Shown: in pieces, positions 34,872 to 37,305 of the stretch | Layout of the letters: every line of letters starts with the position of its first letter | Numbering within the stretch: the stretch's first letter is position 1 | NCBI GenBank assembly: GCA_040751795.1 | Contig: JBFMHR010000003.1 | Span: 264,421 to 328,420, forward strand | DNA length: 64,000 bases | Origin: Thermoplasmatota archaeon | Lineage (GTDB): Archaea > Thermoplasmatota > Thermoplasmata > UBA10834 | Reading direction: 5' to 3' | The notes under the pieces: model-generated | Told to the model about the DNA's origin: nothing | Databases searched by the model: none | What the model saw: only the letters and a program-made list of their open reading frames with translations | Position numbers and translations under genes: made by a program

Positions 34872-35231
34872 TCATACCGTCGCGACCGCCATCCGCCTCG
34901 GAATGCTGCCTGGTCCGGGGAACTCTGCAGCTGGTCGGGCGAGATGTGCCTATGAATGGGGCAGAGGGATTCAAGCTCCTGCAGAGCCAATGTGTCCGGA
35001 GCCTGAGGAAATCAAGCGGGACTTCGTACGGGGACGACCCGTTTGAGTCCTCCGCTACCCCCCCTCATCGCCATCAACGAGATCGATCTGCGCCTGAAGG
35101 TTGATCGCCTCAGGCCGGCACGGCAAGCCCCCTTAGATGGACAGCCGCCCAGCAGTAGGCATGTGTCCGACAACTTTAAAGTTCACATACATAATGGGAT
35201 ATATCCGATAATTATTCATATTAGTGGCACA

Positions 35232-35861
35232 ATGAGATATATTGTGACATTCCGACTGAACGGACACGGACTCCCGCGTTACATTCGAGAGGGGGACAAG
35301 GTCGAGCGCATCTATCGGGTACTGCTGAGCAGACGCGGGGCGGGCCAGACGTGGTATCGTATCGCCAAGGCAGCTGATGTGAGCTACGGCTGGGCCCATC
35401 ACATCTTGCAGAACTTGGAGCGCGACGGCCTGATTGATGGGTCAAGGGTAATCGAGCCCCGATCACTGTTCTTGAAGTGGGCGCGGAGAAGGGATCGCAG
35501 GCTATTTCGAGAATACAACATCCAGGAGCCAGATGAACTCATCTCCGAATCGAAACTCGACCACGCATTCACTGGCTACTTCGCCGAGAACCACCTGGGT
35601 CGGTACCTGTTCCCGCGTTTGCGGGAATTCTACGTCAAGGCGGATGACAGAATGAAGTGGCATCAGCTCCTCACGAGGCATGGATATGTAGGCAGGGGGA
35701 ACACGCTGGTTCTCCTGGCCGACGACCATGTGTTCTTCGAAAGACAGAATGTCGACGGCTACCCTCTTGTGTCTACACAGCAGCTGATTGCCGACCTTTA
35801 CCGCACTGGGGCTGAGTGCGCAGAGGCAGCTGACATCTTGGTCTCGAAGGTCTACCCATGA
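35232..35861 (+). CDS. AbiEi-like antitoxin / wHTH transcriptional regulator (type IV toxin-antitoxin, inferred)
   Basis: N-terminal winged helix (ERIYRVLLSRRGAGQTWYRIAKAADVSYGWAHHILQNLERDGLI). 4-nt overlap with the downstream nucleotidyltransferase gene. Local GC is markedly lower than the surroundings. Confidence 0.5.
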   Translation: MRYIVTFRLNGHGLPRYIREGDKVERIYRVLLSRRGAGQTWYRIAKAADVSYGWAHHILQNLERDGLIDGSRVIEPRSLFLKWARRRDRRLFREYNIQEPDELISESKLDHAFTGYFAENHLGRYLFPRLREFYVKADDRMKWHQLLTRHGYVGRGNTLVLLADDHVFFERQNVDGYPLVSTQQLIADLYRTGAECAEAADILVSKVYP

Positions 35862-36658
35862 CCGTACCGCTCTATGATCCGCAGGAAACCGATGCGGCAT
35901 TGACAGCCCTTGGGGAACTCTCGAGGTCGTTGCCAGAACCATTCCTCCTCATGGGTGGATGGGCCGTCTACCTCACCGTCAATGAGTCCTTCAGCAGAGC
36001 ACACGGATCGCCGTATCTCGGTTCCCGGGACATCGACGTATGCTTTCACGTCGAACCCGATCAGACCGTGGAGGCTCTGCGTACCAGCACGTTCGCCAAG
36101 GCCTTGAGCATCGTCAGAGAGGCTGGCTATACACCCCACGGCTCCTTCCGATTCTGCAAGGTGATCCGCAGAGTCGACGGAATGGTTCTGACCGAGGAGG
36201 CAGCGAAGAGGCATCCGCTCCACGAGACCTCCTACCTTTACGTCGATATGATGGTGGACAACGTACATCCGCAACACAAGCACATCTTCAGATGCGACCC
36301 GCTCGATGAACCCCTGGCGGCTCGTGTGTTCGAAAGCGGTGAGGTTGTCCGGCGATCATTGGGGGACTTCAGAGTCCACACTCCTGCTCCGGCGTCCCTG
36401 CTCGCCACAAAACTGAGGTCTATTCCCAAGCGACAACTGGATGACAAGCTCTGGAAGGATGCATGCGATATCTACTCTCTCATATGGCATTCATCGGAGG
36501 ACTATTCGTCAATACTCGCGAAGGTGAGGAAGGAGTATCCCGATGGTTGCTCGGCGGCGCGTGGGGCGATGACGGATGAGGTCGTGGCTCGGGCCGCCCA
36601 TCATATCGGAATCGGGGACGATGAGTTCGCGAGCGTTGTCGATCTCCTGGATGGATGA
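35858..36658 (+). CDS. AbiEii/DUF1814-like nucleotidyltransferase (putative toxin)
   Basis: MGGWAVYL...GSRDIDVCFHV matches the GG-x-AL...R-x-S-x-D-x-D pattern of nucleotidyltransferase-fold toxins. Confidence 0.55.
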   Translation: MTVPLYDPQETDAALTALGELSRSLPEPFLLMGGWAVYLTVNESFSRAHGSPYLGSRDIDVCFHVEPDQTVEALRTSTFAKALSIVREAGYTPHGSFRFCKVIRRVDGMVLTEEAAKRHPLHETSYLYVDMMVDNVHPQHKHIFRCDPLDEPLAARVFESGEVVRRSLGDFRVHTPAPASLLATKLRSIPKRQLDDKLWKDACDIYSLIWHSSEDYSSILAKVRKEYPDGCSAARGAMTDEVVARAAHHIGIGDDEFASVVDLLDG

Positions 36659-36754
36659 CGCGACGCTTTCCGCAGACATCCTCCAGACTCCGCCTGGGCA
36701 GCATGCCCGAAGCCGGAGGATTTCAGACGACGCCATGCCCGGCACCCCCGGTGC

Positions 36755-36760
36755 AAAAAA
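36755..36760 (-). terminator. Oligo-T tract (TTTTTT) downstream of tRNA-Trp
   Basis: T6 run about 47 nt 3' of the tRNA on the minus strand. Archaeal terminators are typically oligo-T. Confidence 0.3.
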
Positions 36761-36806
36761 CCCCTTGATTTCTCGGACCGATGACTATACTGGCTATGCC
36801 TAGGAG

Positions 36807-36981
36807 TGGGGGCAGAGGGATTTGAACCCCCATCGACGGGTTTCCTCCACGCGGAGAGCGACTCCGCGCGTTCTACGGACTATGGGTCATCGCTCCAGTT
36901 ACTCATCACTGGTCAGCAAACCCAACGGAAATCATTCCCATAACTGGAGCCCGTAAGGATACCAGGTTACCCCATACCCCC
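36807..36981 (-). tRNA. tRNA-Trp (anticodon CCA) with a 102-nt intron at the canonical 37/38 position; the intron carries box C/D-like motifs
   Basis: Exons fold by hand. Acceptor GGGGGUA/UGCCCCC with discriminator A. T-arm GGGGG-UUCAAAU-CCCUC. Anticodon stem ACGGG/CCCGU, loop CUCCAG. Intron contains GUGAUGA and CUGA, and CTGGAG complementary to the anticodon-loop CTCCAG (BHB-like). No encoded CCA. Confidence 0.75.
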
Positions 36982-37181
36982 AGAGTGGTTTGGACGCCGG
37001 GGAGCCTACTTCTTCCTCAGCTTCTGAGCTCTCTTCCGTCTCCTCATCTTCTTCTTGCGCCACTTCCATCGCTGCTTGCCGCGCTTCTTCCAGGCACGTG
37101 AGCTCCTCTTCATCGGTCAGACTCCCTCGCGTCTTTTGGGCGTACAACGCCCCCCTTTTATATGTCTTTTGGAGGCCAAGG

Positions 37182-37305
37182 CGGGCCGGTCGGGACTTTC
37201 GGGCGCTTCGGGCGCCTTTCGAACCCGAGACCACTGGCTTGCCTCACCGCCCCTTAAGGGGCGGATTAGAAGGCCAGTGCTATATCCTGACTAAGCCACC
37301 GGCCC
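37182..37305 (-). tRNA. Candidate tRNA-Arg (anticodon UCU) with two putative introns (27 nt at 37/38, about 22 nt in the T-loop)
   Basis: Perfect 7-bp acceptor GGGCCGG/CCGGCCC. D-arm GCUUAGUCAGGAUAUAGC. Anticodon stem CUGGC/GCCAG, loop CUUCUAA. T-stem UCGGG/CCCGA encloses UUCGAAA plus a GGCGCCCGAAGCGCC hairpin insert. Confidence 0.4.

What the first reader, a model, noticed from the sequence alone, without database searches (positions are those of the whole stretch)
36807..36981. tRNA-Trp(CCA) interrupted by a 102-nt intron with box C/D-like motifs
Hand-folding gives a complete cloverleaf only after removing 102 nt between positions 37 and 38. The intron contains GUGAUGA (box C) and CUGA (box D) elements and a CTGGAG stretch complementary to the anticodon loop. 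In some Euryarchaeota the tRNA-Trp intron is a box C/D guide RNA that directs 2'-O-methylation of C34 and U39 of its own tRNA. This locus appears to be another instance.
Basis: partly seen in the sequence, partly recalled or inferred. Interest (0 to 1): 0.55.

Follow-up and report, generated by a model that had tools for sequence, protein, structure and literature searches.

The report
tRNA-Trp intron encoding a methylation guide
This is a real archaeal tryptophan-tRNA gene whose 102-base intron carries a small guide RNA predicted to direct methylation of two sugars in its own anticodon arm, a device known since 2000-2001, so it is a correct but ordinary find in an uncultured Thermoplasmata lineage.

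Summary
A tRNA-Trp(CCA) gene lies on the minus strand at 36981->36807. A 102-nt intron sits between positions 37 and 38 (36943->36842).

The intron carries a complete dual-guide box C/D sRNA:
- terminal box C AUGAUUU and box D AUGA;
- internal D' CUGA and C' GUGAUGA;
- two 12-nt guides.

By the N+5 rule the D guide selects C34 (10 Watson-Crick pairs plus one G.U). The D' guide selects C39, not U39. Both duplexes run across the splice junctions, so the substrate is the unspliced precursor.

The terminal boxes are the UGAUU(A/U)/AUGA variant already tabulated for Thermoplasma, Picrophilus and Ferroplasma.

The same architecture sits inside a tRNA-Trp intron in 116 of 129 fetched loci, almost all Thermoplasmatota. 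Compensatory changes occur in the tRNA stems, the C/D terminal stem, an extra intron hairpin and the guide-target duplexes.

A bulge-helix-bulge splice motif folds at the canonical register. It has one conserved mismatch, C34 opposite A or U.

Verdict: a new member of a known kind, of low interest. Side finds: a conserved L41e-tRNA-Trp unit, and a neighbouring tRNA-Arg(UCU) with two introns, one in the T-loop.

The parts
36807..36981 (-). pre-tRNA-Trp(CCA) gene, 175 nt (73 nt after splicing); no encoded CCA
   Evidence: ARAGORN with introns, and the cloverleaf of the spliced sequence. Acceptor, anticodon and T stems are 100% paired with compensatory changes in 58 relatives.
36944..36981 (-). 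exon 1 (positions 1-37, with 17a); anticodon C34-C35-A36 at 36947-36945
36842..36943 (-). 102-nt intron at the canonical 37/38 position
   Evidence: Introns of 95-102 nt in the window clade and Methanomassiliicoccales, and of 66-73 nt in other Thermoplasmatota.
36807..36841 (-). exon 2 (A38 to A73); predicted methylation target C39 at 36840
36929..36935 (-). box C, variant AUGAUUU (canonical RUGAUGA); U at box position 6
   Evidence: Sequence; cmscan alignment to sR3. The same UGAUU(A/U) variant is listed for Thermoplasma, Picrophilus and Ferroplasma and was part of the search pattern that returned all 119 genome loci.
36917..36928 (-). D' guide CCGUUGGGUUUG (12 nt); fifth nt upstream of D' pairs with C39; duplex spans the 3' splice junction
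   Evidence: Pairing string x||||||.x||x. Guide n10 covaries with tRNA position 44 (A-U 32, G-C 17). Guide n3 U/C tracks the last intron nt A/G across classes. Duplex -11.0 kcal/mol; 3% of shuffled guides do as well.
36913..36916 (-). box D' CUGA
36903..36909 (-). box C' GUGAUGA; a 3-nt CCA spacer (36910-36912) separates it from D'
36891..36902 (-). D guide GUAACUGGAGCG (12 nt); fifth nt upstream of box D pairs with C34; duplex spans the 5' splice junction
   Evidence: Pairing x||||||||||.. Positions n2-n11 are paired in 58 of 58 relatives, with G37-C changed to A37-U in L014 and L091. Guide n10 A/G tracks intron nt 2 U/C across classes. Duplex -18.9 kcal/mol; 0 of 2000 shuffled guides do as well.
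36887..36890 (-). box D, variant AUGA (canonical CUGA); its A1 can pair with U6 of box C, replacing the canonical G6-C1 pair
   Evidence: Sequence; the same C and D variants occur together in published Thermoplasmata guides. That the two changes compensate each other is my inference from k-turn geometry.
36937..36940 (-). 5' strand (UGGG) of the terminal stem that closes the C/D k-turn; pairs with 36883-36886 (CCCA)
   Evidence: 97% of cells paired; two pairs with compensatory changes (G-C to A-U in 22 sequences).
36883..36886 (-). 3' strand (CCCA) of the C/D terminal stem
36850..36868 (-). extra intron hairpin CGCGGAG-UCGCU-CUCCGCG; stem with a nearly invariant U(C/A)GCU loop; present only in the long-intron class
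   Evidence: 6 of 7 stem pairs show compensatory changes in 58 sequences. The loop is conserved. The 66-73-nt introns of the short class leave no room for it.
36841..36849 (-). 3' half of the BHB: h' strand U95-G96, H strand G97-A98-G99-G100, and 3-nt bulge A101-A102|A38 holding the 3' splice site
   Evidence: Register taken from the H. volcanii hBHBh' drawing. In the 58-sequence alignment C32-G is paired in 58/58, U33 with G or A in 56/58 and C35-G in 58/58, while C34 opposite A or U is unpaired in 56/58. U2 with intron nt -7 is paired in 58/58 (UG 44, UA 14).
36941..36950 (-). 5' half of the BHB: H strand C32-U33-C34-C35, 3-nt bulge A36-G37|U1 holding the 5' splice site, h' strand U2-A3
37006..37113 (-). 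ribosomal protein L41e/eS32 gene (35 aa), ending 24 nt upstream of the tRNA; probable co-transcript
   Evidence: Match to L41e/eS32 chains of archaeal ribosome structures, E 0.0015. An L41e gene lies less than 200 nt upstream on the same strand in 103 of 117 loci. BRE/TATA-like AAAAGACATATAAAAGG at 37170-37154 and a T6 run at 36760-36755 (read by eye).

Best explanation
The locus is a functional archaeal tRNA-Trp(CCA) gene from an uncultured Thermoplasmata lineage. Its closest fetched relative is a Thermoplasmatota MAG at about 88% identity. Its 102-nt intron encodes a dual-guide box C/D sRNA.

Proposed pathway; the steps are inferred from sequence and from the H. volcanii and Pyrococcus systems.

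1. The gene is probably transcribed with the upstream L41e mRNA, and the ends are trimmed.
2. L7Ae, Nop5 and fibrillarin assemble on the C/D k-turn and on the C'/D' k-loop. The k-turn forms from AUGAUUU and AUGA and is closed by the UGGG/CCCA stem.
3. The D guide pairs with G31-G37 plus the first intron nucleotides. This places C34 five nucleotides from box D for 2'-O-methylation.
4. The D' guide pairs with the last two intron nucleotides plus A38-G45. This places C39 for 2'-O-methylation.
5. Both duplexes include intron nucleotides, so methylation must precede splicing. It could act in cis or on a second precursor molecule in trans.
6. The RNA then refolds into a bulge-helix-bulge. Its parts are the anticodon stem, the bulge AA|A38, a helix C32-G, U33.G, C34xA, C35-G, the bulge A36 G37|U, and a 2-4 bp h' helix.
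7. The splicing endonuclease cuts in both bulges and RtcB ligase joins the exons.
8. The product is a 73-nt tRNA with anticodon loop C-U-Cm-C-A-G-A and Cm39, plus a free and possibly circular intron sRNA.

In this clade and in Methanomassiliicoccales, h' opens into a three-way junction. One arm is the C/D module. The other is a covarying hairpin whose 3' strand runs straight into h' and H. I infer that this hairpin stacks on the short h' helix and extends it.
For: tRNA and intron:
- ARAGORN with introns, and the spliced cloverleaf.
- The motif architecture is unique in the window and absent from 100 shuffles.

Box order and spacing:
- Two 12-nt spacers.

N+5 targets and duplex strength:
- C34 and C39 are selected.
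- D duplex -18.9 kcal/mol, 0 of 2000 shuffled guides as good; D' duplex -11.0 kcal/mol, 3% as good.

Conservation:
- 10 of 10 syntenic metagenome loci carry the intron-containing gene.
- In 116 of 129 loci the pattern lies inside a tRNA-Trp intron.

Covariation in 58 distinct sequences:
- 94.8% of cells paired for the splicing fold against 43-58% when partners are slid; 17 pairs with double changes.
- The D guide duplex is 100% paired, with one compensatory pair. D' guide n10 covaries with position 44.
- Guide positions that face intron nucleotides covary with them across intron classes.

BHB register:
- Same rule as the published H. volcanii structure.
- U2 pairs with intron nt -7 in 58/58 sequences, against 30/58 for the alternative partner.

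Literature:
- Intron-encoded guides for positions 34 and 39 of pre-tRNA-Trp occur in at least 29 archaea and are always intronic, and methylation must precede splicing (PMC2584109).
- Experimental basis in H. volcanii and Pyrococcus (PMC4090602; PMC7994747).
Against: - There are no expression, methylation or splicing data for this organism.
- The match to Rfam sR3 is below the gathering score (20.6 against 41).
- Boxes C and D both depart from consensus.
- The D' duplex has an internal mismatch (n9) and a G.U pair, with only 6 contiguous Watson-Crick pairs.
- The BHB central helix has a C34xA mismatch. The drawn BHB fold scores -35 kcal/mol, against -70 for the best cloverleaf-constrained fold and -78 for the unconstrained minimum, which is not a cloverleaf. 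The BHB is therefore not what nearest-neighbour energies favour.
- Fibrillarin, Nop5, L7Ae and EndA were not looked for in the window.
- The rest of the genome could not be searched for a second tRNA-Trp.
Confidence: 0.9

Rival explanations
1. The gene is a decayed or disrupted tRNA-Trp pseudogene, and the C/D-like motifs in the inserted sequence are chance matches.
For: Default ARAGORN and Rfam gathering thresholds find nothing here. Boxes C and D are non-consensus. The Rfam match is sub-threshold.
Against: The composite motif is absent from 100 shuffles of the window. The same gene, with intact cloverleaf and the same intron architecture, is present in 116 of 129 loci. Compensatory changes occur in the tRNA stems, the intron stems and the guide-target duplexes. 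The variant boxes are the published Thermoplasmata form.
Confidence: 0.02
2. The splice sites lie two nucleotides upstream, as ARAGORN places them (after C35 and after G100). The mature anticodon loop would then be CUCCAAA with A37 rather than CUCCAGA with G37.
For: ARAGORN prints 'gctcc-Intron-aaacc'. The run AAA at the 3' junction makes three registers give a 7-nt loop with anticodon CCA.
Against: Only the 37/38 register gives two 3-nt bulges flanking a 4-position helix next to the anticodon stem, as in the published H. volcanii hBHBh'. In that register C32-G and C35-G are paired in 58/58 sequences, U33 with G or A in 56/58, and U2 with intron nt -7 in 58/58. I checked the shifted registers by hand and they pair none of the required positions. 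ARAGORN does not model the BHB, and it misplaced the intron in L030, L035 and L037.
Confidence: 0.05
3. The intron sRNP acts strictly in cis on its own precursor, rather than in trans on another precursor molecule or as the excised intron.
For: Guides and targets are in one molecule. Both duplexes include intron nucleotides. The review literature recounts an initial cis proposal.
Against: Papers read here report that in vitro work in H. volcanii favours a trans-acting RNP and call the in vivo mode an open question. Sequence analysis cannot separate cis from trans: a trans substrate would also be an unspliced precursor.
Confidence: 0.3
4. The extra 3' hairpin of the long intron class is a decoy target. 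Its loop plus 3' strand (UCGCUC) pairs with the D guide and box D junction (GAGCGA), regulating guide access or the order of the two methylations.
For: There are six contiguous Watson-Crick pairs in the window, and 5-7 in all but two of 51 distinct long-class sequences, always centred on GCUC. The loop is nearly invariant while the stem covaries. L014 has a differently shaped hairpin that still contains AGCUCC, matching its own D guide GGAGCU.
Against: A match of this length arises in 6-9% of mononucleotide shuffles of the window-clade domain, and in about 25% for the 5-mers. L087 and L104 changed guide position n1 without a compensating change in the hairpin. The sequences are related, so this amounts to one or two independent observations. 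The real target duplex, at -18.9 kcal/mol, would out-compete it.
Confidence: 0.1

Closest known systems
tRNA-Trp intron box C/D guides of Thermoplasma acidophilum, T. volcanium, Picrophilus torridus and Ferroplasma acidarmanus (Grosjean et al. 2008, PMC2584109, Additional file 4)
   Same: They have the same variant terminal boxes (C = UGAUUA, D = AUGA) with canonical D' CUGA and C' UGAUGA. Both guides are aimed at positions 34 and 39, and the D guide core is ACUGGA. Most genome loci fetched with this pattern are labelled Thermoplasmatota or one of its subgroups.
   Different: The loci fetched here that are labelled Thermoplasma, Thermoplasmataceae or Oxyplasma have short introns (66-73 nt) without the extra hairpin, and their D guides read UGGAAC, with an A opposite C32. 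The window has box C ending in U (AUGAUUU), a D guide fully matched to C32, and a 102-nt intron.
Haloferax volcanii pre-tRNA-Trp (103-nt intron), the experimentally characterised case
   Same: The intron is at 37/38 with an hBHBh' motif, and its length is similar (103 against 102 nt). A dual-guide C/D sRNA methylates position 34 (Cm) and position 39. The guide duplexes include intron nucleotides, so methylation precedes splicing.
   Different: H. volcanii has degenerate boxes (GGACGA/CCGA) and targets U39. Its extra hairpin lies between D' and C', and its BHB central helix is perfect (CUCC/GGAG). Here the extra hairpin lies 3' of box D, position 39 is C, and the central helix carries a C34xA mismatch.
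Pyrococcus sR50 (tRNA-Trp intron) and Rfam RF01133 sR3
   Same: The box order is C-guide-D'-C'-guide-D, with 12-nt guides containing GGGU and UGGAGC cores.
   Different: These are compact introns of about 60-70 nt with near-canonical boxes. The window scores only 20.6 bits against sR3, whose gathering score is 41.
Long-intron tRNA-Trp genes of Methanomassiliicoccales and Methanomethylophilaceae MAGs (fetched here)
   Same: Their introns are 95-101 nt with the same three-way layout: C/D module, covarying hairpin with a U(C/A)GCU loop, and an intron end of GUGGUGGAA (or GUAGUGGAA). The L41e gene lies directly upstream.
   Different: They have a different anticodon-stem sequence (GCGGG or GUGGG against ACGGG), a different D' guide 5' half and a different linker. 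I found no publication describing them in the held library.

Membership tests
Archaeal pre-tRNA-Trp intron-encoded dual-guide box C/D sRNA | Host gene is tRNA-Trp(CCA) with a single intron at 37/38 | tested here: met
   ARAGORN with introns finds tRNA-Trp(cca) with a 102-nt intron. The spliced 73-mer gives a clean cloverleaf with A73 and G1-C72.
Archaeal pre-tRNA-Trp intron-encoded dual-guide box C/D sRNA | Boxes C, D', C', D in that order, with roughly 12-nt guides upstream of D' and D and a terminal stem | tested here: met
   AUGAUUU-12 nt-CUGA-CCA-GUGAUGA-12 nt-AUGA, flanked by UGGG/CCCA. C and D are the Thermoplasmata variants. The terminal stem covaries.
Archaeal pre-tRNA-Trp intron-encoded dual-guide box C/D sRNA | D guide complementary to the anticodon loop, with C34 opposite the fifth nucleotide upstream of box D | tested here: met
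   10 Watson-Crick pairs plus one G.U; -18.9 kcal/mol; 0 of 2000 shuffled guides as good. 100% paired in 58 relatives with one compensatory pair.
Archaeal pre-tRNA-Trp intron-encoded dual-guide box C/D sRNA | D' guide complementary to the 3' junction and anticodon stem, with position 39 opposite the fifth nucleotide upstream of D' | tested here: met
   Pairing x||||||.x||x with C39 at n5. n10 covaries with position 44. The target base is C39 here and U39 in H. volcanii.
Archaeal pre-tRNA-Trp intron-encoded dual-guide box C/D sRNA | hBHBh' splice motif at the exon-intron junctions | tested here: inconclusive
   Two 3-nt bulges, the h helix and an h' helix of at least 2 bp are present, and U2 pairs with intron nt -7 in every sequence. 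The 4-bp helix has one mismatch (C34xA). That mismatch is conserved in 108 of 117 Thermoplasmatota loci and is also seen in 15 of 88 canonical-box introns from metagenomes. The fold is not the energy minimum.
Archaeal pre-tRNA-Trp intron-encoded dual-guide box C/D sRNA | 2'-O-methylation at positions 34 and 39, and excision of the intron, in vivo | not testable with these tools
   This needs RNA from the organism or in vitro reconstitution.
Archaeal pre-tRNA-Trp intron-encoded dual-guide box C/D sRNA | Genome encodes L7Ae, Nop5, fibrillarin and the splicing endonuclease | not tested
   Only ten ORFs near the locus were scanned against Pfam, and none is one of these proteins. I expect them elsewhere in the genome, since as far as I know they occur in nearly all archaea.
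Rfam RF01133 (sR3) | Score at or above the curated gathering threshold (41 bits) | tested here: not met
   20.6 bits, E 0.007, full-length alignment over model positions 1-55. This shows resemblance, not formal membership of that Rfam family.

The most novel reading that the evidence does not exclude
The long-intron class shared by this clade and Methanomassiliicoccales may be a distinct architectural variant of the tRNA-Trp intron.

In this variant the C/D module is an insertion in a three-way junction. A separate covarying hairpin, with an invariant U(C/A)GCU loop, supplies the inner helix of the splice motif. Its loop would have a sequence-specific role, such as a protein contact or transient pairing with the D guide, that couples or orders methylation and splicing.

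The near-universal C34 mismatch in the splice helix of Thermoplasmatota might belong to the same switch between the guide-bound and splice-competent folds.
Probability: 0.2. Interest if true: 0.4.

Novelty: new member of a known kind. Interest (0 to 1): 0.2.

Why it matters
It matters little for new biology. Intron-encoded box C/D guides for Cm34 and Nm39 of tRNA-Trp have been known since 2000-2001. They are tabulated for at least 29 archaea, including Thermoplasma with the same variant boxes.

The practical value is for annotation:
- Default tRNA and Rfam scans returned nothing in this 64-kb window, although it holds two intron-containing tRNA genes.
- Uncultured Thermoplasmata MAGs will therefore tend to look as if they lack tRNA-Trp, and a tRNA-Arg, unless intron-aware tools are used.

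The comparative set assembled here also documents three things:
- a phylum-wide UGAUU/AUGA box variant;
- two intron length classes;
- a recurrent C34 mismatch in the splice helix.

These are small but usable facts for anyone studying how methylation and splicing are ordered.

Tried and rejected
- Default ARAGORN and Rfam at gathering thresholds found nothing. Only intron-aware ARAGORN and the Rfam E-value mode were informative.
- An exact-sequence look-up of the neighbouring PAC2 protein found no contig. The 35-aa L41e look-up worked.
- Three primary papers are not in the held library: Clouet d'Orval 2001 (PMC92551), Bortolin 2003 (PMC275556) and Singh 2008 (PMC2441990). I relied on reviews and on the Grosjean 2008 supplement.
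- A literature search for Methanomassiliicoccales tRNA introns with sRNA returned nothing.
- I considered three registers for pairing CUCC with the intron end GGAGGAA:
  - The perfect CUCC/GGAG register leaves a 4-nt bulge and would give an 8-nt anticodon loop. It is also lost in most relatives, which read GGUGG.
  - The UCC/GGA register chosen by RNAfold gives no BHB.
  - I kept the canonical register.
- I considered an intron at 38/39, using a UCCA/UGGA helix. I rejected it because it leaves G31 and C32 unpaired opposite the bulge.
- Alternative partners for U2 and A3 (extension of the C/D stem) and for U95 and G96 (extension of the hairpin) are possible but fit less well than h'.
- The decoy-target idea for the hairpin loop was not significant.
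- Hard-constraint folding did not retain the BHB pairs, and the unconstrained minimum-energy fold is not a cloverleaf. Energies therefore say little here.
- Three apparent BHB outliers (L030, L035, L037) were ARAGORN misplacements of the intron, not real exceptions.
Full report
**What is there**

The region reads as a tRNA only on the minus strand. Default ARAGORN and Rfam at gathering thresholds report nothing anywhere in the 64-kb window. With introns allowed, ARAGORN finds one gene: tRNA-Trp(cca) at c[36806,36981] with a 102-nt intron. The in-silico spliced 73-mer gives a clean cloverleaf.

My numbering is as follows.
- G1 is at 36981.
- Exon 1 ends at G37, at 36944.
- The intron is 36943-36842.
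- Exon 2 is 36841-36807, running from A38 to the discriminator A73.
- CCA is not encoded.

**The intron**

Read 5' to 3', the intron is:
- UUA, then UGGG, then A;
- AUGAUUU (box C);
- CCGUUGGGUUUG (12-nt D' guide);
- CUGA (box D');
- CCA (spacer);
- GUGAUGA (box C');
- GUAACUGGAGCG (12-nt D guide);
- AUGA (box D);
- CCCA;
- a 14-nt linker;
- the hairpin CGCGGAG-UCGCU-CUCCGCG;
- UG-GAGG-AA.

The terminal boxes are variants.

In k-turn geometry, box C position 6 pairs with box D position 1. Here that pair is U-A instead of G-C. That the two changes compensate each other is my inference.

The same pair of variants (UGAUUA with AUGA) is listed for Thermoplasma acidophilum, T. volcanium, Picrophilus torridus and Ferroplasma acidarmanus. 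The source is the supplementary table of tRNA-Trp guides in Grosjean et al. 2008.

The permissive Rfam scan gives one notable hit. It is sR3 at 36885-36939 on the minus strand, 20.6 bits against a gathering score of 41, E 0.007, aligned over the full model length. The sR3 consensus carries the same guide cores (CGGGUCUG and UUGGAGC) as the published tRNA-Trp intron guides.

The composite architecture pattern occurs once in the window and never in 100 dinucleotide-preserving shuffles.

**Targets**

I used the rule shown in the published figure: the target is the nucleotide paired with the fifth guide nucleotide upstream of box D or D'.
- The D guide pairs with G31-C32-U33-C34-C35-A36-G37-U1-U2-A3-U4. 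That is ten Watson-Crick pairs plus one G.U, with C34 at the fifth position.
- The D' guide pairs with A101-A102-A38-C39-C40-C41-G42 and then C44-G45. C39 is at the fifth position, and there is a mismatch at guide position 9.

Duplex energies are -18.9 kcal/mol for D and -11.0 kcal/mol for D'. No shuffled D guide out of 2000 does as well. Three percent of shuffled D' guides do.

Position 39 is C here, as the D' guides of most non-halophile entries in the published table imply. It is not U as in Haloferax.

**Relatives**

An exact-sequence look-up of the 35-aa ORF just upstream returned ten syntenic metagenome loci. All ten carry tRNA-Trp with a 98-102-nt intron at the same place.

Almost all are labelled with one of these names:
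- Thermoplasmatota, Thermoplasmata or Thermoplasmatales;
- Methanomassiliicoccales or Methanomethylophilaceae;
- broader archaeal labels such as Euryarchaeota or Methanobacteriota.

Four carry bacterial names: one labelled Faecalibacterium, one Eggerthellaceae and one Bacteroides, plus L112, which is labelled Methanomicrobiales. Their tRNA-Trp genes match the Methanomassiliicoccales type, so I take them to be mis-binned or mislabelled contigs.

In 116 of the 129 loci the pattern lies inside an ARAGORN-called tRNA-Trp intron. Most of the others lie at or near a locus or contig end.

The closest fetched relative is a Thermoplasmatota MAG contig, L026, at about 88% identity over 3 kb. Other members of the window's clade are MAGs labelled Thermoplasmata archaeon UBA10834 and Euryarchaeota archaeon RBG_19FT_COMBO_56_21.

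Introns fall into two length classes:
- 66-73 nt, in loci labelled Thermoplasmatales, Thermoplasma and Oxyplasma among others;
- 95-102 nt, in Methanomassiliicoccales and the window clade.

**Covariation**

I aligned 58 distinct long-class precursors. On the splicing-competent fold, 94.8% of cells are paired, against 43-58% when the partners are slid by one to three columns. Seventeen pairs show changes on both sides.

Per element:
- The acceptor, anticodon and T stems are 100% paired, with compensatory changes.
- The C/D terminal stem has two compensatory pairs.
- The extra hairpin has six of seven pairs with compensatory changes, while its loop U(C/A)GCU is nearly invariant.

For the guide-target fold:
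- The ten D-guide pairs are intact in all 58 sequences, with G37-C changed to A37-U in two.
- D' guide position 10 covaries with tRNA position 44 (A-U in 32, G-C in 17).

Across the two intron classes:
- D guide position 10 (A or G) tracks intron nucleotide 2 (U or C).
- D' guide position 3 (U or C) tracks the last intron nucleotide (A or G).

The guides therefore read the unspliced precursor across both junctions. This agrees with the published conclusion that methylation must precede splicing.

**Splice motif**

The published H. volcanii hBHBh' fixes the register. The helix H is positions 32-35 against intron nucleotides -6 to -3. The bulges are 36, 37, i1 and -2, -1, 38.

Applied to the window:
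- H is C32-G100, U33.G99, C34xA98 and C35-G97.
- The bulges are A36 G37|U1 and A101 A102|A38.
- h' is U2.G96 and A3-U95. U4.G94 and G5-C93 are also possible in this sequence.

In the 58-sequence alignment:
- C32-G and C35-G are paired in 58/58.
- U33 pairs with G or A in 56/58.
- U2 pairs with position -7 in 58/58, as U.G in 44 and U-A in 14.
- C34 is unpaired in 56/58.

Across all Thermoplasmatota loci, 108 of 117 show the same single mismatch at C34 and only three have a perfect helix. Three apparent outliers were ARAGORN misplacements of the intron.

A metagenome scan for introns with canonical boxes gave 88 distinct precursors. Of these, 71 have a perfect helix and 15 have the same C34xA mismatch. 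The mismatch is therefore a recurrent natural variant. It is nearly fixed in this phylum and is not a defect of this locus.

Alternative partners for U2/A3 and for U95/G96 fit less well. Nearest-neighbour energies do not favour the BHB, and I give them little weight for a protein-bound RNA.

**Mechanism**

The mechanism is inferred by analogy with the characterised systems.
1. L7Ae, Nop5 and fibrillarin assemble on the k-turn and the k-loop.
2. C34 and C39 of an unspliced precursor are 2'-O-methylated, in cis or in trans.
3. The RNA refolds into the BHB.
4. The endonuclease and the ligase yield a tRNA with Cm34 and Cm39, plus a free intron sRNA.

In the long class the 3' strand of the extra hairpin continues directly into h' and H. 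The simplest role for the hairpin is to stack on the 2-bp h' helix and extend it. That would leave the C/D module as a side arm of a three-way junction.

Why the hairpin loop is invariant remains unexplained. A decoy-target idea, with the loop pairing to the D guide, was not significant and showed no covariation.

**Comparison and verdict**

This is the known pre-tRNA-Trp intron guide system. It is reported in at least 29 archaea and is always intronic for tRNA-Trp. The window carries the Thermoplasmata box variant, in a lineage where I found no description.

It is a new member of a known kind, and interest is low. The long-intron architecture and the C34 mismatch are modest, specialist-level observations.

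**Things noticed nearby**

- The ORF 24 nt upstream (37113-37006, minus strand) is ribosomal protein L41e/eS32. An L41e gene precedes tRNA-Trp on the same strand in 103 of 117 loci, mostly by 3-36 nt.
- Upstream of the L41e promoter lies a second hidden gene, tRNA-Arg(UCU), at 37305-37182 on the minus strand. It has two introns:
  - 27 nt at 37/38;
  - 22 nt at 59/60 in the T-loop, with a perfect hBHBh'.
- The T-loop intron recurs in 31 loci, including Methanomassiliicoccales, with a covarying h' helix.
- Gene content downstream of tRNA-Trp differs between otherwise syntenic loci. In the window it includes an AbiEii-family protein.
- A sequence of about 80 nt directly after the tRNA is shared by a subset of loci.

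Noticed in passing
window 37182-37305 (minus strand); introns at 37240-37266 and 37196-37217: There is a second hidden tRNA gene, tRNA-Arg(UCU), with two introns. One is 27 nt at the canonical 37/38 position. The other is 22 nt at 59/60 in the T-loop, with a perfect hBHBh' (H = UUCG/CGAA, bulges AA|A and AG|U, h' = GGCGC/GCGCC). After in-silico splicing ARAGORN calls a 75-nt tRNA-Arg(tct). ARAGORN and Rfam missed the unspliced gene. A T-loop intron of this kind recurs in 31 fetched loci, including Methanomassiliicoccales, with covarying h'; I confirmed the tRNA-Arg host only for the window and its syntenic metagenome loci. L007 and L010 lack the 37/38 intron. [quoted passage not shown]
   Followed up: partly
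window 37006-37113 (minus strand) and the 24-nt spacer to 36981: A 35-aa ribosomal protein L41e/eS32 gene ends 24 nt upstream of tRNA-Trp. No TATA-like element lies between them. A BRE/TATA-like AAAAGACATATAAAAGG sits at 37170-37154 and a T6 run at 36760-36755. An L41e gene lies upstream of tRNA-Trp on the same strand in 103 of 117 loci, mostly 3-36 nt away. This suggests a conserved mRNA-tRNA co-transcript.
   Followed up: partly
window 36844-36847 opposite 36946-36949; loci L001-L129: The 4-bp helix of the tRNA-Trp splice motif has a mismatch at C34 (opposite A or U) in 108 of 117 Thermoplasmatota loci and is perfect in only 3. Among 88 canonical-box tRNA-Trp introns from metagenomes, 71 are perfect and 15 have the same mismatch. 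G is almost never found opposite C34 in this phylum.
   Followed up: partly
window 36850-36868 (minus strand); alignment A1 columns 125-143: The extra hairpin of the long intron class has a nearly invariant loop U(C/A)GCU on a freely covarying stem. The loop plus the adjacent stem reads GCUC(C), a copy of tRNA positions 31-35 and the complement of the D guide. The decoy idea was not statistically supported. In Methanomassiliicoccaceae the 3' strand (CCUCCCGU) resembles the anticodon-stem 3' strand closely enough to mislead ARAGORN.
   Followed up: partly
window 35043-36806; loci L001-L010 downstream of tRNA-Trp: Genes downstream of tRNA-Trp differ in every otherwise syntenic locus. In the window they include an AbiEii-family nucleotidyltransferase toxin homologue at 35858-36658 and an unassigned 272-aa ORF at 35043-35861. 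About 80 nt immediately 3' of the tRNA (TCCTAGGCATAGCCAG...AAGGGGTTTTTTG...) are shared by the window, L006, L009, L026, L036, L059 and L127. This looks like a tRNA-linked integration hot spot or variable islet.
   Followed up: no
loci L030, L066, L129 (genome contigs): Contigs filed under the bacterial names Faecalibacterium, Eggerthellaceae and Bacteroides salyersiae carry a Methanomassiliicoccales-type L41e-tRNA-Trp unit with the C/D intron. They are probably mis-binned archaeal contigs from gut metagenomes.
   Followed up: no
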